Numbered from the stretch's first letter, positions 15,106 to 56,790 are shown. The stretch is DNA of 64,000 bases from Ignavibacteriae bacterium HGW-Ignavibacteriae-1 (GCA_002839825.1 PGYU01000007.1:27165-91164), one strand, 5' to 3'. Translations and numbers: made by a program. The notes: generated by a model from the letters alone, not told the origin.

Positions 15106-15293
15106 TAAAAGCACAAAAATCCGACGATAACAGCCCAAATACAAATCATTGATTTTAAATTCATTGCTAATAATTGTACTTCTCGATTCAGAATAATTTA
15201 GAATTTTGCCGTAAATTACGTATTTTTAAATTTGAATATTTCATTACTTGAATTTTATATATTCGTTATTGAATTTGAATTTATGAGCTTATA

Positions 15294-29234: not shown

Positions 29235-29332
29235 CTGAGTGAAATCATAAGCCCTTGTAATATACAATGTTACGAGGGCTTGTTTTTTGTTTCCAACATA
29301 TTACCAAAAGAATGCCAAACCGTCATTTTTGT

Positions 29333-29357
29333 CCCGTCAGGTGTTACACCTGACGGG
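29333..29357. repeat. Perfect palindrome CCCGTCAGGTGTTACACCTGACGGG. An identical copy lies at 33397-33421 with a half copy at 33370-33386. Related CCGTCAG hairpins lie at 46946-46969 and 46991-47013, with a degenerate copy at 56797-56816.
   Basis: Read directly from the sequence. All copies lie in 3' intergenic positions. Confidence 0.6.
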
Positions 29358-29568
29358 AGGATACAGTGTTGTTTAAATGAATTAATATTTTTAAATAACT
29401 TAAGTTATGTAAAATAATGAATCTACAAAATCTGATAATTTTATAATTTAATTCAAATTTCTCTTGTTTATATCCAAAAGTTTACTATTTTTAAAACATC
29501 TAATTTATTAATATGTAGACAATTATACGTTCTTTGATTTTAATAAATTTCAAATAGGGAGTCTAAGT

Positions 29569-33367: not shown

Positions 33368-33698
33368 AACCCGTCAGGTGTGAGACTTAAATCGTCCCGT
33401 CAGGTGTTACACCTGACGGGAGGAATTTTATTACTACCTAATTCATACCCCGAACTCCCAGTCTTCAAGCTCAATCTAATATGCTGCTACAAAATAAAAT
33501 ATTCAGATGATTAGTTATGTATAATATTATTTTAAGTGTTAATGAGAAAATAGATTTGCATTTAATAAAATAATAGTTATATTTGCCTAAGTGTTTTGTT
33601 CATAAGTGTGAAAGTATATGTGAATTATAAATACAAGTCCGCTAAATGATTAATACACAGAGTTTTAATATATTCTTAAAAATATTGGGAGTGCTTTT

Positions 33699-39620: not shown

Positions 39621-39631
39621 TATTTCACCTT

Positions 39632-40571: not shown

Positions 40572-42200
40572 TTAATTGATTATTATTCGTTGCGAAACAA
40601 ATTCATTCTTATCGGATTTGAGACCAATTAAATATGTGCCTGTAGTCAAATTAATCAGATTTAGTTTTATATGATGTTCTCCGGCATTCAAATTATTGAT
40701 ATTTGATAGTCTGCCAATGAATGCGCCCTGAATATCATATATATTTATCTCAATATTTCGCACTTCAGTTGTTTTGAATTTCATTGTAATAGAACCGTTG
40801 TATACCGGATTAGGATATAAATTCTGTATTTCGATTGCACCATTGGCAAATCGGCAATAATCGTAAAATGACTCTTCTTCAATGAAATTGCACGCTTCTT
40901 CTAAGCTTAATGTGCCGGACTCTATTGATGAAATAATTTCAATTTCATTTTTCAAAGCTTTTTTGTAGCGTTCCGGTAGTGATTCGATAAATTCATCTGT
41001 AGGATAATACCACAAAACTAATTTTTCAATCAAATCATTTTTATTAAATTTGATTTCGATTGGCAAAAGCTTCGAGTAATCCATGTTTTCAATATATTTC
41101 TGACTTATTGGCGAATCATGCGAAATAAATACATATTTATGGTCAGTATTATTGTATTTAAAAGCGGCAATTATCGGAACAACTTTGCTGTAGGAATCTT
41201 TTGCCCAATTACCGAATTGTGCAATATTATTTACAAAACCTTGTAAAGCCCGCGTCTTCCAATCTTCATAAGCGACTGCATAATCCATTCCAATGTATTC
41301 ATGAACCGAGCTATGCAATATTACATTTTTCAAATTGTAATATATTTTTCCGTCAATAGTGTCTGAGGTGGTTGCCGTTCTATATGCAGTAGCATGAATT
41401 GTGGCTTTAACCAATATAGATTCATCAAGTTTATCCTTCAAATCTATCTCATGGCGGGTTTTTATGAGTAGTGTATCGCCATTTACAGGGTAATTTCGTT
41501 CAACTAATTCATAATTCGCCGGAAGATTGCTATAAGATTTATTGTTCCTCATTGGAATTGGATGCAACTGATGAAAGTATTCGATAGGATATGATACAGT
41601 ATTTTCATTCAATTGAATATTTAATTTTGCTAATTCATTTTTTGTCAGATTTAAAGTTATTAGCCCCGGTATTGGGCTTCCTTCAGCATCGGTTTGAATA
41701 GAGCCTGGTTCGAGGAAATCTATAGATGTACTTTTGTTTCCAATTGTAAATACATTTTGCGGACGTTGAAGTGCTTCGGTTCTAAATGGATTTTTAATGT
41801 AAATAGGATAGTTTGTCAATTCCTCTTGAGATATGATTTGAGTTTTTCCTTCAATATGTTTGGATTTGGTACTACTTTCGGTTAATACTGCAATTTCTGA
41901 ATTGTCAATCAAATCATGTTCTGTGTGTTCAATTTCTGACGTATGGATACTGGATTTTGAACTAATTTCAATAATTTCAAGAATATTTGAAATCTCAAAG
42001 TATTGATTCATACTTAGAAAACTAAACACTACTAAAAAAGTCAACATTGCGATACTCCCCAACAGTTCGACATTCAGTGGTGAATTATGAGCAAATTTAT
42101 TCACTGCTAAAATTGAATTCAATTCCTTATCATCTAAAGGCTCTTTAAACTGATTCATTTCCTTAGCAGCAGCAAAATATTTATTTAACTCTGTATTCAT
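40572..42200 (-). CDS. Anti-sigma-like single-pass membrane protein with a T9SS C-terminal domain (paralogue of 24953-26554).
   Basis: A 45-aa N-terminal segment precedes TM helix LLGSIAMLTFLVVFSFL. The central domain shares WYYPTDEFIESLPERYK with the paralogue's WFEPTDELLKVVPENIK. The C-terminus is LYPNPVYNGSITMKF...GTYLIGLKSDKNEFVSQRIIIN. It overlaps the sigma gene by 20 nt. Confidence 0.5.
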   Translation of the reverse strand: MNTELNKYFAAAKEMNQFKEPLDDKELNSILAVNKFAHNSPLNVELLGSIAMLTFLVVFSFLSMNQYFEISNILEIIEISSKSSIHTSEIEHTEHDLIDNSEIAVLTESSTKSKHIEGKTQIISQEELTNYPIYIKNPFRTEALQRPQNVFTIGNKSTSIDFLEPGSIQTDAEGSPIPGLITLNLTKNELAKLNIQLNENTVSYPIEYFHQLHPIPMRNNKSYSNLPANYELVERNYPVNGDTLLIKTRHEIDLKDKLDESILVKATIHATAYRTATTSDTIDGKIYYNLKNVILHSSVHEYIGMDYAVAYEDWKTRALQGFVNNIAQFGNWAKDSYSKVVPIIAAFKYNNTDHKYVFISHDSPISQKYIENMDYSKLLPIEIKFNKNDLIEKLVLWYYPTDEFIESLPERYKKALKNEIEIISSIESGTLSLEEACNFIEEESFYDYCRFANGAIEIQNLYPNPVYNGSITMKFKTTEVRNIEINIYDIQGAFIGRLSNINNLNAGEHHIKLNLINLTTGTYLIGLKSDKNEFVSQRIIIN

Positions 42201-42609
42201 CTTTCACTCCAATTAATTCAGCCAATTGCTTTTTCGCTCTGTATAATCTTGATTTAATAGTTTCTTCGCTTACATTCATAATTATACTCGCTTCCTTTCG
42301 TGAAAAGCCCTCAATTTCTGATAAAATCAGCGTTTCTCTGTAATCCGGCTTCAACTTATTCATTGCTTGTCGCAAAAATTGAATATCAATCATTACATCG
42401 GGATGCAATGAGTTGTCCATTAAATTGTCAAAATCAAAATCCTTTTCAAAGTTGGATTGAAATTTGATTGATTTGTAAAACACTCTACTTGCGATAGTAA
42501 ATACATAGCTTAAGAAAGCATCTTCACTCTTGAGTTTGGCAAATCCTAAGAAAGCCTGATAAAGAGTTTCGCTCAGTAATTCCTTTGCATCGTCGGTATT
42601 TCTAGTCAT
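42181..42609 (-). CDS. ECF-type RNA polymerase sigma-70 family factor (short).
   Basis: Region 2 (LLSETLYQAFLGFAKL) and region 4 (ETLILSEIEGFSRKEASIIMNVSEETIKSRLYRAKKQL) are present. Confidence 0.7.
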   Translation of the reverse strand: MTRNTDDAKELLSETLYQAFLGFAKLKSEDAFLSYVFTIASRVFYKSIKFQSNFEKDFDFDNLMDNSLHPDVMIDIQFLRQAMNKLKPDYRETLILSEIEGFSRKEASIIMNVSEETIKSRLYRAKKQLAELIGVKDEYRVK

Positions 42610-43969: not shown

Positions 43970-46801
43970 ATGAACATAATAAGTCATTTTAAAGATAGAG
44001 GAAAAGCAGTCACCATAACTTATAGCTTGGTTTTTGCTTTAATTGCCTACTTAGCATTTACGACACTCAACTCTGCGGTACAAGTAACAATGCCCGAAGA
44101 GAACGACGAATGCATGATGTGCCATGACGACAAAGATTTGAAAGGTACGCGCAAAGGCAAGAATATTTCGATGTATGTCAATCCCAATCACGTTTTGGGT
44201 TCAGTTCACGCTGAAGTAAAATGCGTTGATTGCCATACAGATTTAGCAGGAGTGGAATTGCCTCACGAGGACGATTTGAAGCCCGCAACTTGTGGTAAAT
44301 GCCACACTAAGCAGCAAAAGGATTTCGACATGAGCTTTCATGGTGTAGCACTCAAAAAAGGCGACCCTTTGGCGCCTAATTGTCAGTACTGCCACGGTAG
44401 CCACCAAATTGTTGATGCAAAGCACGAAAAATCGCCCGTGCAACCCCTCAAAATACCATTCATGTGTGGGAAATGCCACCAAGAAGGTGCACCCGTACAA
44501 ATGTCTAGGAATATTCCCCAATCGCATATCTTGGAAAATTATTCTGAGAGTATTCATGGTGAAGGTCTTTTCAAGCGCGGTTTAGTTGTGACTGCTACTT
44601 GCGTTTCGTGTCATACTGCACATGCGATTTTGCCACATACTGATAAGAGGTCTTCGATTGCACGTAATAATATTGCCGCAACGTGCTCTCAATGTCATGC
44701 GAGAATTGAAGATGTGCACAAAAAAATCATTGATGGCGAATTATGGGAGAAAGAAGCTCATACGCTGCCTGCTTGTGTTGATTGCCACCAACCTCATAAA
44801 GTTCGGAAATCGTTTTATGATGTAGGTTTAGCAAAAGCCGAGTGTTTGAATTGTCACCAAGATAAAAATATTAAAGCAAGCAAAGGCGGTCGCTCTCTGC
44901 ATGTTGATATAAGCAAATTAGACCATTCGGTACATTCAGACCTTGCTTGCAGTAAATGCCATATTGAGGTTCGCCCATCTAAAATTCGCTCTTGCGAAAC
45001 AATTACAACAAAAGTTAATTGTGGAAGTTGCCATGACAAAGTAAACGATAATTATATGCAAAGCAGCCATGGGAAGCTATTCTTAAGTGGTGAAAGTGAT
45101 GCTCCAACTTGTGTAACATGCCACAATGACCACGAAGTGCTCCCGAAGATTAATCCAATGTCTAAAACTTTTGCTATAAATATTCCTAACCTATGCTCAG
45201 AGTGTCACCAAGACGGACATCAAGCAGCGGTCAGGATGGAAGACAAGGTACAACATCTTACAGAAACTTATTCGGAGAGTATTCACGGGCAGGGCTTGAA
45301 ATCCGGCAGACTCAAAGTAACGGCGAATTGTTCGGATTGTCACTCTGCGCATATGGAAGCAAATCATGAAAATCCCGTATCCTCGACTCATAAGGACAAT
45401 ATTAGCACCACTTGTGGCAAGTGCCATTGGGGAATTCAGACTCAATTCGATAAAAGTATCCACTCGCCAATGGTATCAAAATCGGAAGATGACTTGCCAA
45501 ATTGTAACACATGCCATGTGGCTCACTCAGTAGTTGACCCATCAAAAGATGAGTTCAGATTGTCCATGTTGAATACCTGCGGCAAATGCCATGAAAAAAT
45601 TACTCACTTATATTTCGATACATATCACGGGAAGGCGTCACTTCTTGGTTCGGGCAAAGCTGCTAAATGCCAAGATTGCCATAGCGCCCATATGATATTA
45701 CCAACATCACACGCAAATTCGACACTTTCACGAGACAACATTGTCGAAACATGTGCAAAATGCCATCCCGCAGCTAATAAAGGCTTTACAAGGTATTTAA
45801 CTCATGCAACTCATCACGACCCGGAAAAATACCCACTGCTTTTCATCACATTTTGGGGTATGACAATACTTCTTCTCGGCACATTTCTGGTTTCATGGTT
45901 GCACACATTATTGTGGTTGCCAAAGTCATTAAAGATGCGAAAAGAGATGATGGTACTCAAAGCCGCTGGGCATTCTGGCAAACGCGTTAGGAGATTTACA
46001 CCATTGAACCGAATTTTGCACGTCACAATGATATTATGCTTCCTGACTCTTGCCGCCACAGGGATGATGCTCAAATTCTCATATGCTTGGTGGGCACAAT
46101 TCAGCGTTAAGTTGATTGGCGGAGTGGAAGTTACAGGCTTCTTCCATCGCTTTGCTGCAATAGTATTGTTCGGTGTATTCTTTACTCATATTTTCGATTT
46201 AATATTCAACAAACGTAAAGAATTTAGTTCATGGAAAGAAATGCTTTTGGGTTCGGATTCTCTTTTGCCAAATAAAAAAGATTGGGAAGATTTTATCGGC
46301 TCAATGAAATGGTTCTTCAACAAAGGACCGCGCCCGCAATACGGAAGATGGACTTATTGGGAAAAATTCGACTATTTTGCAGTATTTTGGGGGATTTTCG
46401 TAATTGGCTCAACCGGGCTTATGCTCTGGATACCCGAGTTTTTCACCAAATTTATGTCCGGACAATTCATTAACGTTGCTACTATTATTCATAGTGACGA
46501 GGCATTGCTTGCAGCAGGATTCATTTTCACCATACATTTCTTCAATACGCACTTCCGTCCGGAAAAATTCCCTATGGATACCGTAATTTTCTCAGGAAGT
46601 TATGATGTAGAAGAATTCAAATTCGACAGACCCGCCGAATATGAAAAATTGGTCGAAGAAGGGAAATTGGAAGAACTTTACGTTGACGCACCGACTCCGA
46701 CACAAAAGAAAGTTCATTCAATCTTTGGATGGGCAGCTTTATTAACCGGATTATTAATAGTCTTTTTAATAATTTATTCGATTATTAGCATTAACTTTTA
46801 A
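43970..46801 (+). CDS. Membrane-anchored 19-heme c-type cytochrome fused to a C-terminal FdnI/HydC-like diheme cytochrome b domain (CbcL-like).
   Basis: I count 19 CxxCH motifs between residues 48 and 600. The C-terminal 330 aa hold 4-5 TM helices with [25 protein letters not shown] and [18 protein letters not shown], matching the Ni/Fe-hydrogenase/formate-dehydrogenase b-type cytochrome family. Confidence 0.8.
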
Positions 46802-46812
46802 ATGTAAGTATA

Positions 46813-46945
46813 TCAATTCATCCGATGACTCCAAGTCATCGGATGAATATTGTAGATTAAAATATTGTAGGGACAGCAACAGCGTTCTGTCCAAAATATC
46901 GTCATACTTAGCTGCATGCGAAGAATCAAGTTTTCAAAAAAACAT
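46813..46945. repeat. ~130-bp intergenic repeat element, copy A (copy B at 55284-55412). It opens with a 14-bp-stem hairpin.
   Basis: Copy A reads caATTCATCCGATGACTccaAGTCATCGGATGAATAt...GGACAGCAACAGCGTTCTGTCC...GAAGAATCAAGTTTTCA, and copy B is nearly identical. Confidence 0.65.
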
Positions 46946-47378
46946 TCCGTCAGGTCTACAACTGACGGACTGAAATGAAGAACATGTTTACCGTCAGTTA
47001 TAACAACTGACGGGACAATAAAACGAATGATATTGTATAAATTGTTGCAGTGAATAAGGTAGGTGACGTTTGGGTGATAAAACTTGGAGAGACTTCTGTT
47101 TTGCAGTTCTCAAATGTTCATCATATAGTGTTTTCCATATCTCAAGCACTTTTTAACTAATTTTAAGGACGTTATTAGTATTTACCCATAAATCAGAAAA
47201 TAGTATCAAAGAAATTATTAATTTTTAGAAATATAGTACAAACTAAAAATAAATGTTGAAATTTAATTCAATTTGTTTATCTTTGTTTGTTGACTTTTTG
47301 GATGTTTATATATAGTTATATATATATGTTGTTTTTTAGATATAAATAATCTTACAATAATATTCTGATAAGGTAAAT

Positions 47379-48545
47379 ATGAAAGACAAGAAGCATATAG
47401 TAATAGTATTCTCAATAGTTTTTGGGAGTATAATTATAGCGTTGATTGCTGACAGATTATTGCAACCTACAAGTTTCGGCAAATACGGACATTACCGTTG
47501 GGATGCCGTTAATGAGCTTCAGACTCAGAAAATCATAAATCAAAATACTAATACATGTAGTGAATGTCATAATGATATATATCAGTTGCATCAGAAGGAC
47601 GCTCATTTTAGTGTGCCTTGTGTTGACTGCCACGGTGCGGGAGATTTGCACGTTTCATTCTATAGAAAAGATGAAAACTCGAAGAATATCACCAAATTAC
47701 AAGCTGTACTGAAAAAAGAATTTGATTTCGAAGGTTGTCTTTATTGCCACCGGAAATTAAATGCTCGACCTTCTGACTTCCCTCAGATAAATCAGGAAGA
47801 GCATTACAAATTTATGCACGTAATTGATTCAACTACAAAATGTATTGCCTGCCATGATCCTCACGAGCCTATATTTCTATTGACTGAATCAAGACAGGCT
47901 CGTCTGCATCCAATAGTTTACAAATGTACTGATTGCCACAGTAAAAGACCCGAAAAGAATTATTATGATGTTGCCGACCATCCTAAGATATTCGAATGTA
48001 AAGATTGTCATTCCGAAATTGTCAAGGATTTCAACACTAAATCTCACAGTAACGCAGTTGAATGTCGAACATGCCATTTATTTCATAAAGAAGATGAGAC
48101 AATTGGACGAATGTATAAAAACGGAAACATGGAATTCTGTTTGCTTTGTCATGAAAAGAAACCCTTCAAAGATGCAGACTTTCCTCCTAAAGTTGAGTGG
48201 CCTTCCCACATTGGCAGTCTAAAACATATAGAAAAGACAGATACGAAATTATGTCTTGACTGTCACGCAAAGGATATTCATAAAATGGATTTAAGATTGA
48301 GGGGGAATCCGCATCCCGGAAATTGGAAAGCCGAACATAAGAAATATGCAAAGAGAACTTTTGCTTCTAATGACAAATCTGATTGTAAAAATTGTCATAC
48401 AAAGGATTATTGTATGTCCTGTCATTTGACAGAAATGCCACACCCGGTTGATTTTATGGATAATCACAAATTCACTGTTGAGAAAAAAGGGAAAAAAATG
48501 TGTGCAAACTGCCATAATACTGATTTCTGCGGTCAATGTCATTAA
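47379..48545 (+). CDS. Membrane-anchored 13-heme c-type cytochrome.
   Basis: An N-terminal TM helix precedes 13 CxxCH motifs, the last being CGQCH at the C-terminus. Confidence 0.8.
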   Translation: MKDKKHIVIVFSIVFGSIIIALIADRLLQPTSFGKYGHYRWDAVNELQTQKIINQNTNTCSECHNDIYQLHQKDAHFSVPCVDCHGAGDLHVSFYRKDENSKNITKLQAVLKKEFDFEGCLYCHRKLNARPSDFPQINQEEHYKFMHVIDSTTKCIACHDPHEPIFLLTESRQARLHPIVYKCTDCHSKRPEKNYYDVADHPKIFECKDCHSEIVKDFNTKSHSNAVECRTCHLFHKEDETIGRMYKNGNMEFCLLCHEKKPFKDADFPPKVEWPSHIGSLKHIEKTDTKLCLDCHAKDIHKMDLRLRGNPHPGNWKAEHKKYAKRTFASNDKSDCKNCHTKDYCMSCHLTEMPHPVDFMDNHKFTVEKKGKKMCANCHNTDFCGQCH

Positions 48546-48620
48546 ACGTATTTGAAATAAAATGTTTACGTATTATCAAGAGAAACAAATTGATTAAACA
48601 GTAAAATAAGGACATTTAAA

Positions 48621-49376
48621 ATGGATAATATAGAAAGAAGGCAATTCATAAAATGCGGTTTGTACAGTACAGCCGGAATACTTGTCGGGTCATTTTTTGC
48701 TTTCAGTAAAAGCAGCGACCCTATTGAAGTTCTAAAATATGAGGATTTGCTAAAGTTCGACTGGGGCTATATAGTTGATACTACAAGATGTATCGGCTGC
48801 GGTGCGTGCGTAAGAGCTTGTTCGGTAGAAAATAATGTACCTGATACATTTTTCAGAACGTGGGTTGAAAGATTTGAAATTAATAAGGATGAGCAGGTAA
48901 GGGTTGATTCACCGAACGGAGCAATGGAAGGTTTCAAAAATGACAATTTTGATACCGATATTGTTAAAGCATTCTTTGTACCAAAAATCTGTAACCACTG
49001 TCAAAATTCAGCCTGTACACAGGTTTGTCCTGTCGGAGCATCATACCATTCACCGGATGGTGTTGTACTGATAGACAAAGAACATTGCATTGGGTGCGGA
49101 TACTGCGTTCAGGCTTGCCCGTATAGCTGTAGATATATAGACCATAAAGTCGGTGTTGCGGATAAATGTACATTATGTTATCATAGGATTCACAAAGGCG
49201 AACTACCGGCTTGTGTAAATGCCTGTCCCCGTAATGCTCGGATTTTCGGCAATCTGAAAGACCCCGAAAGTAATATTCGTAAAATTCTACACAAAAGAAG
49301 ATATGGTATACTTAAACCTGAATTAGGAACTAATCCTAAATGCTTTTACATCGGACTTGATATGGAGGTTAAATAA
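48621..49376 (+). CDS. Tat-exported 4x[4Fe-4S] ferredoxin subunit (NrfC/PsrB/HybA family).
   Basis: Tat motif RRQFIK. Four Cys clusters: CIGCGACVRAC, CNHCQNSACTQVCP, CIGCGYCVQACP and CTLC...CVNACP. Confidence 0.85.
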   Translation: MDNIERRQFIKCGLYSTAGILVGSFFAFSKSSDPIEVLKYEDLLKFDWGYIVDTTRCIGCGACVRACSVENNVPDTFFRTWVERFEINKDEQVRVDSPNGAMEGFKNDNFDTDIVKAFFVPKICNHCQNSACTQVCPVGASYHSPDGVVLIDKEHCIGCGYCVQACPYSCRYIDHKVGVADKCTLCYHRIHKGELPACVNACPRNARIFGNLKDPESNIRKILHKRRYGILKPELGTNPKCFYIGLDMEVK

Positions 49377-50524
49377 TGGAAACGGCACAAAATTTCCTTT
49401 TCCCCAATGAAATGCATATTTACTGGACAGTTATGATTGTCTTATATCCATATATCACAGGTATGGTTGCAGGTGCTTTTATAGTATCGTCATTTTATCA
49501 TGTTTTTGGTATGGAAAAACTCAAGCCAATCGCAAAATATGCACTTGTTTCATCACTTGCATTTTTACTTTTCGCGACAGTACCGCTCCTTAATCATCTC
49601 GGCAGACCCGAAAGAGCATTTAATATTATGCTGACGCCGAATTTTAATTCTGCTATGAGCGGTTTTGGCTTTGTTTATGCATTTTATATGTTAATTGTTG
49701 TATTGGAAATCTGGTTCAGTTACAGAAAGGAATTTATAGAAAAGTATAAGCAGTCAAAGGGATTTGTAAAGTTCATTTATAAGGTCCTTATTCTCGGCAA
49801 TACAAATGATAATCTTAATACAAGAAGATATGACAATAAAATGGTTGTTGTCTTGGGTGCAATCGGAATACCGGTGGCGTGTATTCTGCACGGATATGTT
49901 GGTTTTCTATTCGGTTCTTTAAAGGCAAATCTATGGTGGTCAACTCCTCTGATGTTTATTATTTTCATATTTTCGGCAATTGTTTCCGGCTTGGCGGTTC
50001 TGACATTTCTATATTTGTTTGTACATTGGAAAAGAAAACTTAAAATCAATCAGGAAGCTATTGATTTAATGTCAAAATGGCTTTGGGGGTTTATGATAAT
50101 AGCAGTTACACTCGAACTAATGGAGGTTTTGTCTATTGCTTATGAACAAACAGAAAAATGGGAAATCCTACATCAACTAATATACGGCAAACTTAAGGTC
50201 TCGTATTTATATCTACAGATTGGACTGTTTTCCATTGTGCCGTTTTTAATTCTTACAATTACATCATTAGTGAAATTTGATAACAGAATAAGAAATTTTT
50301 TGATTTGGCTCTCATCCGGCATGTTGTTAATTCAGGTTTTGCTGATGCGCTGGAATGTAGTTATCGGAGGACAGTTAGTATCCAAAAGTATGAGAGGATT
50401 TACAGAATATTTTCCGGGCTTATTAGATAAAGAGGGTTTATTAGTTTCATTTTTACTGATATTTATTCCATTTTTATTATTAAGAGCTTTTGATAAATTT
50501 TTCCCGTTTTTCGAGAAACAATAG
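49376..50524 (+). CDS. NrfD/PsrC-family integral membrane quinol-interacting subunit.
   Basis: 382 aa with ~9-10 TM helices and an NrfD-like N-terminus (HIYWTVMIVLYPYITGMVAGAFIV). The start overlaps the upstream stop (ATAATGG). Confidence 0.8.
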   Translation: METAQNFLFPNEMHIYWTVMIVLYPYITGMVAGAFIVSSFYHVFGMEKLKPIAKYALVSSLAFLLFATVPLLNHLGRPERAFNIMLTPNFNSAMSGFGFVYAFYMLIVVLEIWFSYRKEFIEKYKQSKGFVKFIYKVLILGNTNDNLNTRRYDNKMVVVLGAIGIPVACILHGYVGFLFGSLKANLWWSTPLMFIIFIFSAIVSGLAVLTFLYLFVHWKRKLKINQEAIDLMSKWLWGFMIIAVTLELMEVLSIAYEQTEKWEILHQLIYGKLKVSYLYLQIGLFSIVPFLILTITSLVKFDNRIRNFLIWLSSGMLLIQVLLMRWNVVIGGQLVSKSMRGFTEYFPGLLDKEGLLVSFLLIFIPFLLLRAFDKFFPFFEKQ

Positions 50525-51680: not shown

Positions 51681-53111
51681 ATGAAAATACTATACTTTGT
51701 TGTTACATTTATGTTGATAATCGCCAATTATGGGACTTTAAGTTCGATAGAAAACGATGATTGCATGATGTGTCATTCTGATCCCGATATGTATATGGAA
51801 AAGGGGCGTTCAAAAATTTCTCTATGGGTGGATAATTCAAAGTTTATGTTTTCTGCCCATAAAAATGTGAAATGTATAGACTGCCACAAGGGATTCGACC
51901 CCGATGATATCCCGCATAAAGAAAATATTGGGAAAATTGATTGCAACTCATGTCATCAAGGAGTCGAAAAAAAGCATACCTTCCACCCATGGATGGCAGA
52001 TGCTCCTTTGCAAAACGATTGCAAAAAATGTCATGGCTATCATTATGCAACTCCGGCTAAGGGCAAAGGCAGCAAGGTCTCCGGCATTCATTCTCTTCAA
52101 CAATGCGGCACTTGCCATCAAGATGTGGTTGACGAATATATGAAATCGGAGCATTACAAAGCATTATTGAGCATCTCGGACGAAAATGCCCCCGATTGCA
52201 ATTATTGCCATAGTAAACCCATCACTAAGGGCTGGATTGGAAATTATATTGAGCGAAAAGCAAACCAAAACCAAGTTTGTACAGATTGCCATAGTCACGA
52301 CACCAAAAATCCCTCGGTCATCAAAACGATAACAAATTCTAATTCGAGGCATTTCCAACTGAAAGCTGAAGGTAAAGAGCACGCTGCAGTATGTACGGAT
52401 TGCCACGGATTTCATAATATTAAGAAAAATGAGGATTTTGAAGCTCGTCTCAGTGTCAAAAATTCATTCTCTGCGTGTGGCAAATGCCACGTTCATATCG
52501 CCCAAGAATATCAAAACAGTATCCACGGGTTGGCTCAAATCAAAGGCAATATGGATGCTGCATCGTGCGTCAGTTGCCATTTCGAACATGATTTGAAAAA
52601 GGTTCCACACGTAGATGAAGCCATTTTCAAAAGTAATAAATTAAACAAACAATTTGCCATAGACAGCAAAATGATTTATTGCGTTTCTTGCCATGGCGAT
52701 TCGGAATTAATGGGCAAAAGCAATATCAAATCATTGTTGGAATCACATTCGTGGTTGCCGGAACTCGAAAGCCATTTTTCCGCAGTATCTTGTTTCGATT
52801 GTCATTCGAGTTATACGGTACCGTATTTATCGCATAATATATTACCTTTGGAAAAAAGTGTCAAAACTTGCAATCCATGCCACGAGCAGGACATGAATTT
52901 GAAATCTAAATTGGCAAATTATTACAAGACACGAAAAACCGGAGAATCCGGAATAATTGACGGCACAATAGGCGGTGGCAGTTACGTTGGCTTGTCTCGG
53001 AGTGTAATTCTTGATAATCTAAGTTTTATACTTCTGGGAGGCGTATTTATTGGTTTACTCGCTCATGGTTATATTAGATGGTACTTCAGAAGCAAAAAGG
53101 AATCAAAATGA
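51681..53111 (+). CDS. 13-heme c-type cytochrome with N- and C-terminal membrane anchors.
   Basis: I count 13 CxxCH motifs. The N-terminus CMMCHSD resembles the 43970 protein's CMMCHDD. A C-terminal hydrophobic helix is present. Confidence 0.8.
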   Translation: MKILYFVVTFMLIIANYGTLSSIENDDCMMCHSDPDMYMEKGRSKISLWVDNSKFMFSAHKNVKCIDCHKGFDPDDIPHKENIGKIDCNSCHQGVEKKHTFHPWMADAPLQNDCKKCHGYHYATPAKGKGSKVSGIHSLQQCGTCHQDVVDEYMKSEHYKALLSISDENAPDCNYCHSKPITKGWIGNYIERKANQNQVCTDCHSHDTKNPSVIKTITNSNSRHFQLKAEGKEHAAVCTDCHGFHNIKKNEDFEARLSVKNSFSACGKCHVHIAQEYQNSIHGLAQIKGNMDAASCVSCHFEHDLKKVPHVDEAIFKSNKLNKQFAIDSKMIYCVSCHGDSELMGKSNIKSLLESHSWLPELESHFSAVSCFDCHSSYTVPYLSHNILPLEKSVKTCNPCHEQDMNLKSKLANYYKTRKTGESGIIDGTIGGGSYVGLSRSVILDNLSFILLGGVFIGLLAHGYIRWYFRSKKESK

Positions 53112-55270
53112 AAAAGTTAGAACTATACCCGATTTGGATTAGAATTTGGCATATTTTGCAAGGTATTTTATTTCTTCTTCTTTTGATTTCCGGTGTTGGT
53201 ATGCATTTTGGGATTGTACCGATTGGCTTTTCATTGCCAATCCATATTTATTCCGGTATCACGATGTCGGTACTATATATACTATTTTTCGTAATGAATT
53301 TCGCAACCGGGAATGCAAAACATTATTTCAAAATTCAAAAAGGGACAGTAAAGAAATTTTTTGTAGAATTAAAATATTATTTTTGGGATATATTTATTCA
53401 GCAAGAATTGGCATACGACCCGGAAATCATTAAATTCGGTGTTTTCAAGCAATTATTATATTTGAAAATAATGTATATAGTTATTCCATGTATTATTATT
53501 ACAGGATTAATTATTTTGATACCAAATCTGATGCCTGAAACGATTTTTGGTAGCTCAGGTGTTTGGGTTATTACGCTGATTCACACGATAATGGGATTCT
53601 TCCTGACTGCGTTTTTCCTTTTGCACTTATATTTGGGTACAACAGGCAAGACAGTTGGTCAATTATATAAAGCAATTGCAAGCGGTAGTCTGGAATACGA
53701 AGAAAAAATACCGGAACAAGAATTACCATCGGATTTAGTAAAGAAAAAGAAATTCTTCCCGACATCATTTTATAATCCGCTTACAATGCTCGGCTCATTA
53801 TTAGCATTAATGGCATTTGTAGTGATTATCGGACTATTATTTGTTGACATAATTGCAGGATTTGACAATCCCTATATCGGCATTGTTACATTCATTTTCT
53901 TACCTATAATTCTTGGTCTCGGTATAGTATTGATATTTCTCGGGGCTTTATGGGAAAGCAAAAAACGTTTTCTTGCCCAAAAGAAAGATAAACCATTGCC
54001 AATAATAGATTTAAATAGTCCCAAAACCCAAAGAATAATAGCATTTATGTCAATTATTGGTGTGATTTTGTTATTATTCACAGTATTCGGCTCGTTTAAA
54101 GCTTACGAATATACGGAATCTGATGAGTTTTGCGGCGAGGCATGTCATCAGGTTATGCACCCTGAATATTTGGCATATCAAGATTCTCCGCATTCAAATG
54201 TGGGATGCGTCAAATGCCACATCGGTTCAGGTGCAGATTGGTTTGTCAAAGCCAAGTTGTCCGGTAGTTGGCAGCTGATTTCGGTTATGTTTGATTTGTA
54301 TTCAAAACCGATTCAAGTGCCTGTTGCTCATCTACGTCCTGCCCAAGAGACTTGTGAGCAGTGCCATTGGCCCGCTAATTTCAATAGCGAAAAGAAAATA
54401 GTCTATGATTTTTTCCAATCGGACGAAGTCAATTCCGAAACGATGTTGACAATGTTACTCAAAACCGGTGGTGGTACACCTGAAAGCGGTAGGCAATCCG
54501 GGATTCATTGGCATATGAATCTCGCTAATGAGATTCATTATATTGCAAATGATTACGAGCGCCAAGATATTCCTTGGGTGAGAGTGGTTTCAAAATTGAC
54601 CGGCGATACGACTATTTATATCAGAGAAGACGACGAAATAACACCGGATATGCTCGAGCCCGAAAAATTACGGAAAATGGATTGTATTGATTGCCACAAC
54701 AGACCATCGCACATTTACAAGATTCCTTACAAGGAAGTAAATACATATATGTCGAATCGCAAAATTGACAATTCACTGCCATTTATCAAAAATCTCGCCG
54801 TCCAAATACTCGAATCATATTCGATTAATCGCGAAAATTCATTGGCGGAAATTAGTAATTATATAAATAATTTTTATAATAAATATTACCCTGAAACAGC
54901 GAAGGGGAAAAAGCATCAGATTCAGCAATCAATCCACCACATTAACACAATTTATTTGCGAAATTATTTCCCGGAAATGCATACAAATTGGAAACGATTC
55001 CCGAATAATTTGGGGCATATGTATTCCGATGGGTGCTTCAGATGCCACGACGGTAAACACAAATCAGCTGACGGGAAAGTGGTGAGCCACGATTGCAATG
55101 TTTGTCATACAATTATTTCACAAAAAACGCCCGGTCAAATTGAAGAAACACGCGGTTTAGACTTGGAATTCAAGCATCCCGGTGGCGAAAATCTCAACAT
55201 CGAAAACAGACTTTGTTCCGACTGTCATGGCATTAAACAAGTGAAAAACATACAGGCATTCAAAAAATAA
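53108..55270 (+). CDS. Fusion of an FdnI/HydC-like cytochrome b (N-terminal) with a periplasmic 7-heme NapC/NirT/ImcH-like c-type cytochrome (C-terminal).
   Basis: The ATG at 53108 follows AAGGAA and overlaps the upstream stop by 4 nt. N-terminal motifs: IWIRIWHILQGILFLLLLISGVGMH and ITLIHTIMGFFLTAFFLLHLYLG. Seven CxxCH motifs follow, including CVKCHIGSGADWFVKAK, which is NapC/NrfH-like. Confidence 0.75.
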   Translation: MKKLELYPIWIRIWHILQGILFLLLLISGVGMHFGIVPIGFSLPIHIYSGITMSVLYILFFVMNFATGNAKHYFKIQKGTVKKFFVELKYYFWDIFIQQELAYDPEIIKFGVFKQLLYLKIMYIVIPCIIITGLIILIPNLMPETIFGSSGVWVITLIHTIMGFFLTAFFLLHLYLGTTGKTVGQLYKAIASGSLEYEEKIPEQELPSDLVKKKKFFPTSFYNPLTMLGSLLALMAFVVIIGLLFVDIIAGFDNPYIGIVTFIFLPIILGLGIVLIFLGALWESKKRFLAQKKDKPLPIIDLNSPKTQRIIAFMSIIGVILLLFTVFGSFKAYEYTESDEFCGEACHQVMHPEYLAYQDSPHSNVGCVKCHIGSGADWFVKAKLSGSWQLISVMFDLYSKPIQVPVAHLRPAQETCEQCHWPANFNSEKKIVYDFFQSDEVNSETMLTMLLKTGGGTPESGRQSGIHWHMNLANEIHYIANDYERQDIPWVRVVSKLTGDTTIYIREDDEITPDMLEPEKLRKMDCIDCHNRPSHIYKIPYKEVNTYMSNRKIDNSLPFIKNLAVQILESYSINRENSLAEISNYINNFYNKYYPETAKGKKHQIQQSIHHINTIYLRNYFPEMHTNWKRFPNNLGHMYSDGCFRCHDGKHKSADGKVVSHDCNVCHTIISQKTPGQIEETRGLDLEFKHPGGENLNIENRLCSDCHGIKQVKNIQAFKK

Positions 55271-55412: not shown

Positions 55413-55596
55413 ACATGAATTACTCATTTCGTTCAAAATGACAAATGGAGCTTGATACTGCGTATGTATAAGTCCCTGAATTATTATTATGATGCTTAAC
55501 TTATATAATTTACAAATAGAAAGTTAGTATTAAATATAATAGTTTAAGATTTTATTCGTAATGCTTTCTAATTTTAAAACAAGGAAGTATTTAATT

Positions 55597-56790
55597 ATGT
55601 TTAGATTATTATTACTAATAGTTTTTCTTTTTACAGTAATAAACTCCTATGCTCAATGGGTGAGAGTAGAGCAATTGCCGCAGATTTATATAACCGGTAT
55701 TGCCCTTAATGATGAAACAATATTTGTGGCAGCAGATACATGCATTATTTTCAAAAGTACCGACAATGGGCAAAATTGGCAAAGTATAAACTTTGACTAT
55801 AATGAAGCCGGAGCTTCAAATATATCATATCTGAATGGTAAAATTTATGTGGGAACTATTGCCCATGGCGTTTATGTCAGTACTGATAACGGTAATTCGT
55901 GGAATAATAAAGGTCCCTCAATGATGCCTGTCTCCGGTTTTTCAGAATTTAAAGGTGAAATTTATTGCTCAACATTAGGAGACGGTGTTTTTGTTGAGAC
56001 TACAAGCTCTTGGGTGCGAATGAATAACGAATTACCTACCTATTCCCAACAAATATACACAATGACTTCGACTCCTAATAATTTACTAATATCAGCGGGG
56101 TCTAACGGTGTTTGGTACAGATACGATTTTGAAATTGGTAAATGGATTGAAGGGTATTTTGACGAGGGTTTATCTCCCGGAATGGAAATCTGGAAGATGA
56201 TTTATGATAACGGTATCTGTTACGCTTCAGCACGAAATAGAATATTTTCGAGTACAAATGATGGAGAAAAATGGGTACAGGATATTGTGGGTACAAAGAA
56301 TGGTACAGATAGGATAATGTACGCAGGAAAAGAACATATATACGCACTCACAAATTCAAGCATGGTTGGTGTCTGGATTCAGAAGCGTTATAAGAATTTG
56401 CCCGCCGGCTCTACTTGGAGCAACGATGAGGAGTTTGTAAATAATGTTTACGCTTTCGACATCCTCGAATACGACGACAAGCTGTTCCTTGCAACCGACA
56501 GAGGACTTTATATAAAGCCCTTAAGTAATACTCATGTTGACTATGAAAATTCAAGCCAGGTTGAAATTTTTCCCAATCCGACTTCAGACGGTTTTGTTCA
56601 AATCAGGAATTCAGAAATAATTAATAAATATGAAATTTTCGATATAACAGGCAGAATTGTCCATAAAGAAAACATCAATGATAATGAGCTTGTTCTTTCT
56701 TTAGACCTCGATTCGGGATTGTATTACGTATCCATAAATTGTTTAAACGGACAAAATTTCTTTATCCCTCTATTAGTTGGCAAATACTGA
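55597..56790 (+). CDS. BNR-like beta-propeller protein with a T9SS C-terminal domain.
   Basis: The ATG at 55597 follows AAGGAAG and the signal peptide reads MFRLLLLIVFLFTVINSYAQ. Repeats STDNGQNW, STDNGNSW and STNDGEKW. C-terminus: EIFPNPTSDGFVQI...GLYYVSINCLNGQNFFIPLLVGKY. Confidence 0.5.
   Translation: MFRLLLLIVFLFTVINSYAQWVRVEQLPQIYITGIALNDETIFVAADTCIIFKSTDNGQNWQSINFDYNEAGASNISYLNGKIYVGTIAHGVYVSTDNGNSWNNKGPSMMPVSGFSEFKGEIYCSTLGDGVFVETTSSWVRMNNELPTYSQQIYTMTSTPNNLLISAGSNGVWYRYDFEIGKWIEGYFDEGLSPGMEIWKMIYDNGICYASARNRIFSSTNDGEKWVQDIVGTKNGTDRIMYAGKEHIYALTNSSMVGVWIQKRYKNLPAGSTWSNDEEFVNNVYAFDILEYDDKLFLATDRGLYIKPLSNTHVDYENSSQVEIFPNPTSDGFVQIRNSEIINKYEIFDITGRIVHKENINDNELVLSLDLDSGLYYVSINCLNGQNFFIPLLVGKY

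What the first reader, a model, noticed from the sequence alone, without database searches (positions are those of the whole stretch)
47379..50524. Three-gene MHC-NrfC-NrfD module (Cbc/Nrf-type quinol:cytochrome oxidoreductase) carrying a 13-heme cytochrome
The tightly packed operon has a Tat-signal FeS subunit (RRQFIK) and an NrfD-like subunit whose start overlaps the upstream stop. The 13-heme cytochrome, with an N-terminal anchor and a final CGQCH at the C-terminus, is much larger than NrfB or ActA pentahemes. No catalytic subunit (NrfA, molybdopterin) is present, consistent with a pure electron-transfer role.
Basis: partly seen in the sequence, partly recalled or inferred. Interest (0 to 1): 0.55.

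Follow-up and report, generated by a model that had tools for sequence, protein, structure and literature searches.

The report
Membrane quinol-to-cytochrome electron export module
This three-gene operon most likely takes electrons from membrane quinol and passes them through an iron-sulfur protein into a membrane-anchored 13-heme cytochrome in the periplasm; the design is already known, but this long-cytochrome version is uncharacterised and widespread in uncultured bacteria.

Summary
Three intact, tightly packed genes at 47379-50524 encode three proteins:
- a 388-aa cytochrome with 13 CxxCH motifs and a retained N-terminal membrane anchor;
- a Tat-exported protein with four [4Fe-4S] clusters (NrfC/PsrB-like);
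- a 9-helix NrfD-like membrane protein that keeps the quinol-site residues His74 and Ser92.

The window matches the groundwater MAG Ignavibacteriae bacterium HGW-Ignavibacteriae-1.

The gene order cytochrome-NrfC-NrfD is kept in all 63 related loci with enough flank, from at least seven phyla. None has a NrfA or molybdopterin gene within 8 kb.

The cytochrome is modular. Its first 165 residues match a large family of ~160-aa anchored tetrahemes that also precede NrfC-NrfD. Hemes 4-8 align with NrfB. The C-terminus adds two diheme repeats. Family members carry 4, 9, 13 or 15 hemes. Conserved histidines suffice to make every heme bis-His, so there is no catalytic site.

Best reading: a menaquinol:cytochrome c oxidoreductase of the Cbc4/NetBCD/NrfBCD kind, feeding periplasmic or extracellular acceptors. 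Direction, partner and energy coupling are inferred.

This is a new variant of a known kind, of moderate interest.

The parts
47379..48545 (+). 13-heme c-type cytochrome, 388 aa, anchored by an N-terminal membrane helix. It is the electron-output subunit.
   Evidence: It has 13 CxxCH motifs and ends in CGQCH. It has 139 homologues, all unnamed, the nearest at 83% in a Ca. Kapaibacterium MAG. Nine invariant non-motif His match the 9 core hemes, and His312, 320, 355 and 363 match the 4 extra hemes. The AF2 model has mean pLDDT 76.5.
47391..47462 (+). Retained N-terminal transmembrane anchor (residues 5-28), preceded by a conserved cytoplasmic His6.
   Evidence: Hydropathy peaks at residues 6-24 and the AF2 model has a helix at 5-28. 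His6 is present in 69 of 69 sequences with a residue at that column. The helix, Pro30 and the SFGxxGxYR linker are conserved even in the tetraheme relatives. This argues against a cleaved signal peptide.
47379..47873 (+). Anchored tetraheme module (residues 1-165; hemes 1-4). It is shared with a large family of ~160-aa cytochromes.
   Evidence: Profile A2 matches many 150-180-aa proteins over profile positions 1-163. Alignment A6 shows four invariant CxxCH motifs, with His91 and His142 invariant and His76 and His162 nearly invariant. In 3 of 3 contexts examined, these short genes precede NrfC and NrfD.
47793..48164 (+). NrfB-like pentaheme stretch (residues 139-262; hemes 4-8).
   Evidence: BLASTP against E. 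coli NrfB gives 1e-08, with all five heme motifs aligned. The family profile hits NrfB structure 2ozy at 1.6e-05 over positions 139-261.
48276..48542 (+). Lineage-specific C-terminal extension (residues 300-388): two diheme repeats of the form PHP..W/F..H..(8-13)..CxNCHxxxxCxxCH. These are hemes 10-13.
   Evidence: The extension is absent from the 9-heme relatives, present as two units in 13-heme forms and as three units in 15-heme forms. It has weak similarity (1e-10 to 1e-4) to separate multiheme genes in other loci.
48621..49376 (+). Periplasmic iron-sulfur subunit with four [4Fe-4S] clusters (NrfC/PsrB/DsrO-like), 251 aa.
   Evidence: Pfam Fer4_11 matches at 4e-26. NCBIfam scores are TtrB 214 bits (cut-off 416), DsrO 189 (cut-off 200) and NrfC 156 (cut-off 378). 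The PsrB structure 2vpw_B matches at 3.4e-49. It is 35% identical to E. coli NrfC. Sixteen cysteines are invariant across 35 relatives. No transmembrane helix was found.
48636..48653 (+). Twin-arginine (Tat) export motif RRQFIK.
   Evidence: The motif is read directly from the sequence. Arg6 is invariant and Arg7 nearly invariant in alignment A4.
49376..50524 (+). NrfD-like integral membrane quinol/quinone-binding subunit, 382 aa, 9 transmembrane helices, no cofactor motifs.
   Evidence: Pfam NrfD matches at 1e-36. All equivalog models score far below cut-off. His74 and Ser92 align with His74 and Ser92 of E. coli NrfD and are invariant in 44 relatives. The AF2 model has pTM 0.79 and its best structural match is ActC of alternative complex III (E 1e-9, TM 0.69-0.72); PsrC is weaker. 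The start codon shares one base with the upstream stop codon.
46802..47378 (.). 577-bp AT-rich upstream intergenic region. It presumably holds the operon promoter, and it also carries hairpins after the upstream gene.
   Evidence: The sequence was read. The consensus promoter scan is not above shuffles (28 found against a mean of 23), and no promoter was assigned. Palindromes of the form CCGTCAG-N9/10-CTGACGG lie at 46947 and 46991.
43970..46801 (+). Context: a 943-aa protein with 19 hemes fused to a C-terminal b-type cytochrome domain (CbcL/MtrH/MtoC-like). This is a second quinol-linked module.
   Evidence: It has 19 CxxCH motifs. Pfam Ni_hydr_CYTB and the NCBIfam FdnI-like model match the C-terminal part. 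Homologues at 45-50% identity sit next to the trio in Myxococcota, Riflebacteria and Phycisphaerales loci. The family is described in PMC6295460.
51681..55270 (+). Context: a 476-aa 13-heme cytochrome, then an overlapping 730-aa protein. The latter has a PhsC-like cytochrome b domain, three membrane helices, a NrfH-like region and 6 CxxCH plus one CxxxCH motif (ImcH-like). This is a third quinol-linked module.
   Evidence: The ImcH architecture is described.

Best explanation
The three genes encode one inner-membrane complex that works as a menaquinol:multiheme-cytochrome c oxidoreductase.

Proposed path:
1. Quinol is oxidised at a periplasm-side pocket of the NrfD-like subunit, involving His74 and Ser92, and protons are released to the periplasm.
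2. Electrons pass through the four [4Fe-4S] clusters of the Tat-exported NrfC-like subunit.
3. Electrons enter the heme chain of the cytochrome. Its N-terminal helix keeps it attached to the complex.
4. The 13 bis-His hemes act as a wire that ends at the extreme C-terminal heme. From there electrons leave to periplasmic or outer-membrane cytochromes, and finally to extracellular or periplasmic acceptors.

Shown here: the subunit composition, the topology signals, the cofactor motifs, the conserved synteny, the absence of a catalytic partner, and the modular origin of the cytochrome.

Inferred: that the three proteins form one complex, the direction of electron flow, the acceptor, and whether the NrfD-like subunit moves protons across the membrane.
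For: - Composition and motifs are confirmed: 13 CxxCH, the Tat motif, 16 invariant FeS cysteines, and the NrfD family match.
- The quinol-site residues His74 and Ser92, named for E. coli NrfD in PMC8076601, align exactly and are invariant.
- The loop charges I read from the sequence follow the positive-inside rule. With the 9 helices, this places the N-terminus and the His74/Ser92 loop on the periplasmic side.
- The NrfD model is most similar to ActC, the quinol-oxidising subunit of alternative complex III. The FeS subunit matches PsrB and the FeS domain of ActB.
- The order cytochrome-NrfC-NrfD holds in all 63 non-duplicate loci with enough flank, from Ignavibacteria/Kapabacteria, Planctomycetota, Acidobacteriota, Myxococcota, Riflebacteria, Victivallales and CSSED10-310. 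NrfC (51-91%) and NrfD (53-93%) are more conserved than the cytochrome (35-83%).
- No NrfA or molybdopterin homologue lies within 8 kb in any locus or anywhere in the window.
- Every heme can be bis-His ligated.
- In the window and in 20 of 63 loci, the neighbours are homologues of CbcL, a known quinol oxidase of extracellular electron transfer. ImcH-like genes lie near 8 of 63 loci.
- The literature already assigns this role to NrfCD-plus-cytochrome modules: Melioribacter roseus (PMC3534657), MBNT15 (PMC9386147), Geobacter Cbc4 and the functionally characterised NetBCD (PMC8805035).
Against: - No experiment exists for any member of this cytochrome family. All homologues are annotated as hypothetical.
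- The direction of electron flow cannot be read from sequence. Related complexes (Nhc, Qrc, CbcL/MtoC) are thought to run towards the quinone.
- Complex formation is inferred only from synteny and from the conserved anchor.
- The NrfD profile finds no solved structure by sequence, so the quinol-site assignment rests on one pairwise alignment with E. coli NrfD and on a review's homology models.
- All 11 intact 13-heme relatives sit alone, with no other cytochrome gene within 8 kb. A link to extracellular electron transfer is therefore not supported by context in the closest relatives.
- Only 64 kb of the genome was seen.
Confidence: 0.7

Rival explanations
1. The complex is the same but runs in the opposite direction. 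It takes electrons from periplasmic or extracellular donors (reduced cytochromes, H2 or formate-derived electrons, Fe(II), a syntrophic partner) and reduces menaquinone. This is what is proposed for NhcABCD, QrcABCD and MtoC.
For: - Nhc is a nine-heme cytochrome plus an FeS protein plus a NrfD-like subunit, and it is described as a cytochrome c3:quinone oxidoreductase (PMC8076601).
- CbcL/MtoC homologues are found in both iron reducers and iron oxidisers (PMC6295460).
- CbcBA is proposed to run in reverse in syntrophic sulfate reducers.
- The source is an H2-rich deep groundwater community (PMC5520028).
- One tetraheme relative sits beside DsrC, DsrM-like and DsrK-like genes.
Against: - The family profile does not match NhcA structures, and the Hmc and Qrc equivalog cut-offs are far from reached.
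- No hydrogenase, formate dehydrogenase or sulfate-reduction gene is in the window.
- The window neighbours resemble the quinol oxidases CbcL and ImcH. ImcH has been implicated only in the oxidising direction.
Confidence: 0.15
2. It is the electron-delivery half of a conventional respiratory system, as NrfBCD is for NrfA. The catalytic reductase (a nitrite, sulfite, tetrathionate or polysulfide enzyme) would be encoded elsewhere in the genome, and the 13-heme protein would be its dedicated donor.
For: - Hemes 4-8 align with NrfB.
- NrfC is 35% identical to E. coli NrfC, and NrfD is the best-scoring named model for the membrane subunit.
- One tetraheme relative is followed by molybdopterin genes.
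- Only 64 kb of a contig of at least 176 kb was examined.
Against: - No NrfA-like gene (CxxCK motif) or molybdopterin gene lies within 8 kb of any of the 64 loci carrying the 9-, 13- or 15-heme cytochromes.
- All Nrf, Ttr, Psr, Arr and Dms equivalog scores are far below cut-off.
- A dedicated partner would normally be co-encoded, as it is in E. coli.
Confidence: 0.12
3. The cytochrome is itself the terminal reductase. It would reduce soluble or chelated metals, humic quinones or another small oxidant directly in the periplasm, with no further protein partner.
For: - The 13-heme relatives are stand-alone three-gene operons with no other cytochrome within 8 kb.
- The last heme motif sits at the very C-terminus in most 13- and 15-heme members aligned; some carry 1-4 further residues.
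Against: - All hemes appear bis-His, so only outer-sphere chemistry is possible.
- The cytochrome is tethered to the inner membrane, so it cannot reach insoluble acceptors.
- This reading overlaps with the best explanation and differs only in the acceptor.
Confidence: 0.03

Closest known systems
Geobacter sulfurreducens Cbc4 (CbcS-CbcT-CbcU, GSU0068-0070)
   Same: It has the same three parts: a membrane-anchored c-type cytochrome, a protein with four [4Fe-4S] clusters, and an integral membrane subunit. It is proposed to be a menaquinol:cytochrome c oxidoreductase feeding periplasmic cytochromes. The published description of CbcS is: 160 aa, anchor at 1-29, linker at 30-58 starting DFG, first heme Cys at 64, four bis-His hemes. 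This fits the tetraheme family that matches residues 1-165 of the window cytochrome.
   Different: CbcS has 4 hemes; the window protein has 13 in 388 aa. Direct sequence comparison with GSU0068-0070 could not be done. Cbc4 itself has no demonstrated physiological role; the cbcS mutant grows like wild type.
NetBCD of Aeromonas hydrophila (a divergent NrfBCD serving MtrCAB)
   Same: It is a Nrf-type cytochrome plus NrfC-like plus NrfD-like module without NrfA. The literature treats it as a functionally characterised inner-membrane quinol dehydrogenase for extracellular electron transfer (PMC8805035).
   Different: NetBCD is encoded with mtrCAB and pdsA; no MtrCAB genes were identified in the window. 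From my own knowledge, not checked here, NetB is a small NrfB-like protein. No sequence was available for a test.
E. coli NrfBCD (the electron-supply part of the NrfABCD nitrite reductase)
   Same: The gene order cytochrome-NrfC-NrfD is the same. NrfC is 35% identical. NrfD aligns with His74 and Ser92 conserved. The five NrfB hemes align with hemes 4-8.
   Different: There is no NrfA. The cytochrome is membrane-anchored and carries 8 more hemes. All three proteins score far below the Nrf equivalog cut-offs. The membrane subunit has 9 helices, not 8.
Alternative complex III (ActA-ActB-ActC core)
   Same: ActC gives the best structural match for the membrane subunit (E 1e-9, TM about 0.7). ActB's FeS domain matches the NrfC-like protein. 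From my own knowledge, ActA is a TM-anchored multiheme cytochrome and ACIII is a quinol:cytochrome c oxidoreductase. ACIII is therefore the best structural template for the proposed electron path.
   Different: There is no molybdopterin-like ActB1 domain, no second NrfD-like subunit (ActF), and no ActD or ActE. The cytochrome profile does not hit ActA. The subunit has 9 helices rather than 10.
NhcABCD / HmcABC of Desulfovibrio
   Same: Each has a large multiheme cytochrome (9 or 16 hemes), an FeS protein with four clusters and a NrfD-like subunit, with no catalytic subunit. The ancestral core of the present family also has nine hemes.
   Different: NhcA and HmcA are, from my own knowledge, soluble cytochrome c3-type proteins. 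They were not detected by the family profile. NhcC has 10 helices and there is an extra NhcD subunit. HmcB and HmcC cut-offs are not reached. Their proposed direction is towards the quinone.
NrfCD-type clusters with multiheme cytochromes noted in Melioribacter roseus (Mros1571-1572) and in an MBNT15 genome
   Same: The genomic interpretation was already published: a CISM-type FeS and membrane-anchor module without molybdopterin, acting as a quinol:acceptor reductase that donates to periplasmic multiheme cytochromes (PMC3534657; PMC9386147). The M. roseus case is from the same phylum.
   Different: M. roseus and Ignavibacterium album were not among the 64 loci found by the genome scan. That scan used only two narrow peptide patterns, so orthology is untested.

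Membership tests
NrfABCD nitrite reductase system | A catalytic pentaheme NrfA (CxxCK heme) encoded with the module | tested here: not met
   There is no NrfA homologue and no CxxCK-bearing multiheme ORF in the window or within 8 kb of 64 related loci.
NrfABCD nitrite reductase system | NrfB, NrfC and NrfD reach the curated equivalog scores | tested here: not met
   NrfB scores 27-28 bits (cut-offs 167 and 184). NrfC scores 155.6 (cut-off 377.6). NrfD scores 51.9 (cut-off 347.6). All 44 family NrfD sequences behave the same way.
NrfD/PsrC superfamily (Pfam PF03916) | A Pfam match above the gathering score, and a polytopic membrane protein without cofactor motifs | tested here: met
   It scores 127.6 bits against a cut-off of 25.8, covering profile positions 7-311 of 313. 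It has 9 predicted helices. It folds like ActC and PsrC.
NrfD/PsrC superfamily (Pfam PF03916) | A periplasm-side quinol pocket with the conserved Ser and an acid or His residue on TMH2 | tested here: met
   His74 and Ser92 align with E. coli NrfD His74 and Ser92, the residues named in PMC8076601. Both are invariant in 44 relatives. Function was not tested.
Geobacter Cbc4 (CbcSTU) | An operon of an anchored c-type cytochrome, a protein with four [4Fe-4S] clusters and an integral membrane subunit | tested here: met
   compared with the description of Cbc4.
Geobacter Cbc4 (CbcSTU) | The cytochrome is a tetraheme of about 160 aa (CbcS) | tested here: not met
   The window protein has 13 hemes in 388 aa. 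Only residues 1-165 correspond to the tetraheme family.
Geobacter Cbc4 (CbcSTU) | Sequence homology to GSU0068, GSU0069 and GSU0070 | not testable with these tools
   No Geobacter sequence could be obtained. Two metagenome scans with primer-derived DNA found nothing, and a search from a DFG-type tetraheme returned only Gemmatimonadota-like proteins. Only the published descriptors agree.
NhcABCD / HmcABCDEF | A cytochrome c3-type NhcA or HmcA cytochrome | tested here: not met
   The family profile A2 finds no nine-heme or 16-heme cytochrome structure at E up to 1. HmcA does not appear among the NCBIfam hits of the window protein.
NhcABCD / HmcABCDEF | A NrfD-like subunit with 10 helices, plus extra membrane or cytoplasmic subunits (NhcD; HmcDEF) | tested here: not met
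   It has 9 helices. No further co-directional gene follows: the next ORF is RibD_C on the other strand. HmcC is matched only weakly (best E 9e-13 among 44 members, cut-off 550 bits).
Alternative complex III | An ActC-like membrane subunit | tested here: met
   Foldseek matches 8k9e_C at 1.2e-9, and 6btm_C, 6lod_C and 6f0k_C with query TM-scores of 0.70-0.72. This is structural resemblance only; sequence identity is 15-17%.
Alternative complex III | ActB with a molybdopterin-like domain, a second NrfD-like ActF, and ActD and ActE | tested here: not met
   The FeS protein is 251 aa with ferredoxin domains only. The operon has a single NrfD-like gene and no extra genes.
DsrMKJOP (DsrJOP module) | DsrO and DsrP equivalog scores, a triheme DsrJ, and adjacent dsrMK | tested here: not met
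   DsrO scores 189.3 bits, close to the cut-off of 200. DsrP scores 34.6 against 350. No DsrJ match was found even at E up to 1. There are no dsrMK genes in the window. One tetraheme relative does sit beside DsrC, DsrM-like and DsrK-like genes.
Psr/Ttr/Arr molybdoenzymes (CISM) | A molybdopterin catalytic subunit encoded with the FeS and anchor subunits | tested here: not met
   There is no molybdopterin homologue in the window or in the 64 loci. TtrB scores 214 bits against a cut-off of 416, and ArrB 146 against 450.
NetBCD | Sequence homology to Aeromonas NetB, NetC and NetD, and linkage to mtrCAB | not tested
   No NetBCD sequence was at hand. No MtrB-type gene was identified in the window by Pfam scans of the large ORFs. 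The function of NetBCD is taken from PMC8805035.

The most novel reading that the evidence does not exclude
The anchored-cytochrome/NrfC/NrfD trio may be a major, unrecognised class of inner-membrane quinol dehydrogenase. It is spread over many phyla of uncultured bacteria, with 499 protein clusters at 50% identity scoring E <= 1e-10. In this class the length of the heme wire would be an evolvable parameter. A tetraheme base was extended to 9 hemes, then to 13 or 15 by adding C-terminal diheme repeats. The long forms would then reach far enough across the periplasm to hand electrons directly to outer-membrane conduits, replacing soluble periplasmic shuttles. The fact that 13-heme operons stand alone while 15-heme ones sit inside cytochrome islands would then reflect two different wiring solutions.
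Probability: 0.2. Interest if true: 0.6.

Novelty: new variant of a known kind. Interest (0 to 1): 0.38.

Why it matters
How electrons leave the quinone pool is the least resolved step of extracellular electron transfer outside Shewanella and Geobacter. This family is common in Ignavibacteria/Kapabacteria, Myxococcota, Acidobacteriota and Planctomycetota genomes from sediments and groundwater. It is annotated only as 'hypothetical protein' plus 'polysulfide reductase', which can mislead metabolic reconstructions into predicting sulfur respiration. Recognising it as a cytochrome-linked quinol module would improve predictions of metal and electrode respiration from metagenomes. Its graded heme counts (4, 9, 13, 15) also offer a natural series for testing how heme-wire length relates to partner choice.

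Tried and rejected
- Foldseek with the cytochrome model against the PDB gave nothing usable. Multiheme proteins have too little secondary structure for this method.
- Sequence and profile searches of the NrfD-like subunit against the PDB found nothing, even at E = 10. Only a fold comparison placed it.
- I tried to obtain Geobacter CbcS for a direct test. Two metagenome scans with DNA taken from the published primers found no match. The last protein search, started from a tetraheme with a DFG linker, returned only a Gemmatimonadota-type clade. Cluster look-ups gave no informative names.
It was repeated with database proteins.
- The sigma-70 promoter scan was not above shuffles, and these phyla use other promoter types. 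No promoter was assigned.
- Considered and rejected as membership: Nrf proper, Psr/Ttr, Nhc/Hmc, Qrc, ACIII and DsrJOP. In each case defining features were tested and not met.
- Considered and rejected: that the N-terminal hydrophobic stretch is a cleaved signal peptide. His6, the helix and the following linker are conserved across both the long and the tetraheme families.
Reference sequences other than E. coli were not retrievable, so curated HMM scores were used instead.

Full report
**1. Observation**

The three ORFs exist exactly as described.

The first ORF, 47379-48545 (+), encodes a 388-aa protein with 13 CxxCH motifs. The last is CGQCH, directly before the stop. Shuffling this protein's own residues 20,000 times gives a mean of 0.14 motifs and never more than 3. 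Of the 86 stop-to-stop frames of at least 100 aa in the window, 81 contain none.

The second ORF, 48621-49376 (+), encodes a 251-aa protein that begins MDNIERRQFIK, a twin-arginine motif. It matches the 4Fe-4S dicluster family Fer4_11.

The third ORF, 49376-50524 (+), encodes a 382-aa protein matching Pfam NrfD at 1e-36. Its ATG shares one base with the preceding TAA.

Pfam scans of twenty other large ORFs found no molybdopterin enzyme and no NrfA-type reductase in the 64-kb window. A tblastn with E. coli NrfA and a molybdopterin protein agreed.

**2. Source**

The NrfD-like protein is 100% identical to a protein of 'Ignavibacteriae bacterium HGW-Ignavibacteriae-1', found on a 176-kb contig. 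The HGW prefix matches the genome names used in the Horonobe deep-groundwater study (PMC5520028). The link to that study is my inference, because this MAG's name was not found in any held paper.

The nearest genome in the species collection is a Candidatus Kapaibacterium MAG, whose cytochrome is 83% identical. Many window proteins carry type IX secretion tails, which fits this lineage.

**3. The subunits**

*Iron-sulfur protein.* It has 16 cysteines that are invariant in 35 relatives and are arranged as four cluster motifs. Its Tat arginines are conserved, and it has no membrane helix. It is closest to PsrB of Thermus (2vpw_B, 3.4e-49). It also matches ArrB and the FeS domain of ActB, and it is 35% identical to E. 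coli NrfC. Against curated NCBIfam models it scores:
- TtrB 214 bits (cut-off 416);
- DsrO 189 bits (cut-off 200);
- NrfC 156 bits (cut-off 378).

It therefore belongs to no named equivalog.

*Membrane protein.* It scores far below the cut-offs of NrfD, DsrP and QrcD. Across the 44 family members, HmcC and the Ni/Fe-hydrogenase cytochrome b subunit model (NF008133) are matched only at E-values of about 1e-11 to 1e-13. No solved structure is found by sequence, even with a profile. Hydropathy and the AF2 model (pTM 0.79) give nine helices. I read the loop charges directly from the sequence. They follow the positive-inside rule, with the N-terminus outside and the C-terminus inside.

The best structural matches are ActC subunits of alternative complex III (E 1e-9 to 1e-6, query TM-score 0.69-0.72). 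PsrC follows with a query TM-score of 0.44 and a target TM-score of 0.63.

In the pairwise alignment with E. coli NrfD, His74 and Ser92 fall on His74 and Ser92. A review of the family names these two positions as parts of the quinol pocket (PMC8076601). Both are invariant in 44 relatives.

*Cytochrome.* It has one N-terminal helix. His6, which lies before the helix, is present in all 69 homologues that have a residue at that column. The helix, Pro30 and the linker SFGxxGxYR are conserved as well. The helix is therefore a retained anchor and not a cleaved signal.

**4. The cytochrome is modular**

Alignment of 72 homologues shows three size classes: 9 hemes (33 sequences), 13 hemes (20) and 15 hemes (18).

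The nine-heme core is shared by all phyla. The Ignavibacteria/Kapabacteria forms add two or three copies of a roughly 40-residue diheme unit (PHP..W/F..H...CxNCHxxxxCxxCH) at the C-terminus.

Nine non-motif histidines are invariant: 76, 91, 142, 162, 177, 201, 223, 277 and 301. This is one per core heme. His312, 320, 355 and 363 can serve the four extra hemes. All 13 hemes can therefore be bis-His, and no candidate open catalytic site is visible.

Residues 139-262 align with E. coli NrfB, with all five heme motifs in register (1e-08; profile against 2ozy, 1.6e-05).

An exhaustive profile search of 1.84 billion representatives gave 1490 clusters at E <= 1e-3 and 499 at E <= 1e-10. Many of these are proteins of 150-180 aa that match only profile positions 1-163. 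These short proteins have the same anchor, the same linker, four CxxCH motifs and four conserved distal histidines.

In all three contexts examined, the short gene is followed by NrfC-like and NrfD-like genes. Those proteins are 51-56% (NrfC) and 41-51% (NrfD) identical to the window's. The E. coli proteins reach only 35% and 25%.

So the whole trio is one family, and its cytochrome has grown from 4 to 9 to 13 or 15 hemes.

**5. Conservation of the operon**

A scan of one genome per species returned 64 loci, all from metagenome-assembled genomes. They come from Ignavibacteria/Kapabacteria, Phycisphaerales/Planctomycetota, Acidobacteriota, Myxococcota, Riflebacteria, Victivallales and CSSED10-310. 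All 63 loci with enough flank keep the order cytochrome, NrfC, NrfD.

NrfC and NrfD are more conserved than the cytochrome. Their mean column identities are 66% and 68%, against 43% for the cytochrome.

No locus has a NrfA or molybdopterin homologue within 8 kb.

**6. Genomic context**

The window holds two more quinol-linked cytochrome modules.
- Upstream, a 943-aa protein joins 19 hemes to a C-terminal FdnI/HydC-like cytochrome b domain. This is the CbcL/MtrH/MtoC architecture, already catalogued with 3-23 hemes in 15 phyla.
- Downstream, a 476-aa 13-heme protein overlaps a 730-aa protein. The latter joins a PhsC-like cytochrome b domain to three helices, a NrfH-like region and seven heme motifs. 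The second half resembles ImcH.

Context varies with the size class of the cytochrome.
- All 14 fifteen-heme loci lie in cytochrome islands with CbcL-like genes.
- Seventeen of 35 nine-heme loci have other multiheme genes nearby. Several of these carry CbcL-like proteins 45-50% identical to the window's.
- All 11 intact thirteen-heme relatives are stand-alone operons with no other cytochrome within 8 kb.

The window is thus unusual among 13-heme loci. The tetraheme relatives sit beside very different partners: DsrC/DsrM/DsrK-like genes, a Rieske/cytochrome b complex, and molybdopterin genes. This suggests a general-purpose quinone-to-periplasm adaptor.

**7. Mechanism**

The best-supported reading is a menaquinol:cytochrome c oxidoreductase.
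1. Quinol binds the periplasm-side pocket of the NrfD-like subunit.
2. Electrons cross the four FeS clusters of the Tat-exported subunit.
3. Electrons enter the heme chain of the tethered cytochrome.
4. Electrons leave from its distal end, which carries a heme motif at the very C-terminus.

The parts, their cofactor motifs, the topology signals, the synteny and the absence of a catalytic partner are shown here. The physical complex, the direction of flow, the acceptor and any proton translocation by the NrfD-like subunit are inferred. If protons and electrons are both released to the periplasm, the step conserves no energy. Whether this NrfD-like protein pumps is open, as it is for the whole family.

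The main rival is the reverse direction, proposed for Nhc, Qrc and MtoC-type systems. A second rival is a dedicated donor role for a reductase encoded elsewhere.

**8. Comparison with known systems**

The kind is known.
- Genome papers on Melioribacter roseus and on an MBNT15 bacterium describe NrfCD-type modules without molybdopterin. They are said to donate to multiheme cytochromes.
- Geobacter Cbc4 is an anchored tetraheme plus an FeS protein with four clusters plus a membrane subunit.
- NetBCD of Aeromonas is treated as a functionally established quinol dehydrogenase for MtrCAB.
- Nhc and Hmc combine large cytochromes with the same two subunits.

The present module is not a member of Nrf, Psr/Ttr, Nhc/Hmc, Qrc, DsrJOP or ACIII, because defining features were tested and not met.

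It most resembles Cbc4. The published description of CbcS fits the tetraheme family that forms the first third of the window cytochrome. CbcS has 160 aa, an anchor at 1-29, a linker at 30-58 beginning DFG, its first heme cysteine at 64, and four bis-His hemes. This link rests on descriptors only. I could not obtain the Geobacter sequence.

**9. Verdict**

The feature is real and correctly read by the first stage. It is a new variant of a known kind: an uncharacterised, widespread family in which the cytochrome has been lengthened stepwise.

It is not surprising to a specialist in anaerobic respiration. Two points do deserve a note. One is the family's breadth. The other is its uniform mis-annotation, as 'hypothetical protein' next to 'polysulfide reductase'.

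Noticed in passing
window 43970-46801 (+): A 943-aa protein has 19 CxxCH motifs fused to a C-terminal FdnI/HydC-type cytochrome b domain (CbcL/MtrH/MtoC-like). Its nearest relatives among the fetched loci are in Myxococcota, Riflebacteria and Phycisphaerales (45-50% identity). The Ignavibacteria versions are split into two genes and only 28-33% identical. The region has higher G+C (0.43 against about 0.35), which would be compatible with horizontal acquisition.
   Followed up: partly
window 51681-55270 (+): A 476-aa 13-heme cytochrome with a C-terminal membrane helix overlaps by 34 nt a 730-aa protein. That protein fuses a PhsC-like cytochrome b domain to an ImcH-like part: three helices, a NrfH-like region, 6 CxxCH motifs and one CGEACH motif. 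In other loci the homologues lack the cytochrome b half.
   Followed up: partly
window 29334-29356, 33397-33419, 46991-47013 (and 46946-46969): A palindromic element CCGTCAG-N9-CTGACGG is dispersed through the window. It has 3 matches against 0.04 expected by chance, plus an N10 variant. It lies in intergenic DNA, including just upstream of the operon, and looks like a REP-type repeat or a terminator family.
   Followed up: partly
related loci L005-L013, L016, L027, L028 versus L010, L014-L026, L037: All 11 intact 13-heme operons are isolated, with no other multiheme gene within 8 kb. All 14 fifteen-heme operons sit in islands with CbcL-like genes and cytochromes of 14-20 hemes. The window is the only 13-heme locus seen with such neighbours.
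   Followed up: yes
L070 918-6823; L071 2521-7575; L072 5001-9903: The tetraheme versions of the trio sit next to quite different partners. These are DsrC with DsrM-like and DsrK-like genes, a Rieske/cytochrome b complex with c-type cytochromes, and a split molybdopterin oxidoreductase.
   Followed up: partly
window 40572-42609 (-): An ECF-type sigma factor gene (142 aa) overlaps by 20 nt the start of a 542-aa gene, which may be an anti-sigma or surface protein. The pair is transcribed away from the cytochrome genes. A regulatory link was not examined.
   Followed up: no
window 13711-15144 (-) and 29145-32637 (+): A phage terminase large-subunit gene stands apart from other phage genes. Separately, a 1022-aa protein with YadA-head repeats and an endosialidase-chaperone domain (tail-fibre-like) lies just after a tRNA-Ser gene. 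These may be prophage remnants.
   Followed up: no
window 20097-21488, 38433-40561, 55561-56790: Several BNR/Ycf48-like beta-propeller proteins with type IX secretion tails flank the cytochrome region. Their function is unknown.
   Followed up: no
L029 8001-9198: In one Ignavibacteriae MAG the 13-heme gene is split into two ORFs with 3 and 10 hemes. This is either a frameshift or an assembly error.
   Followed up: no
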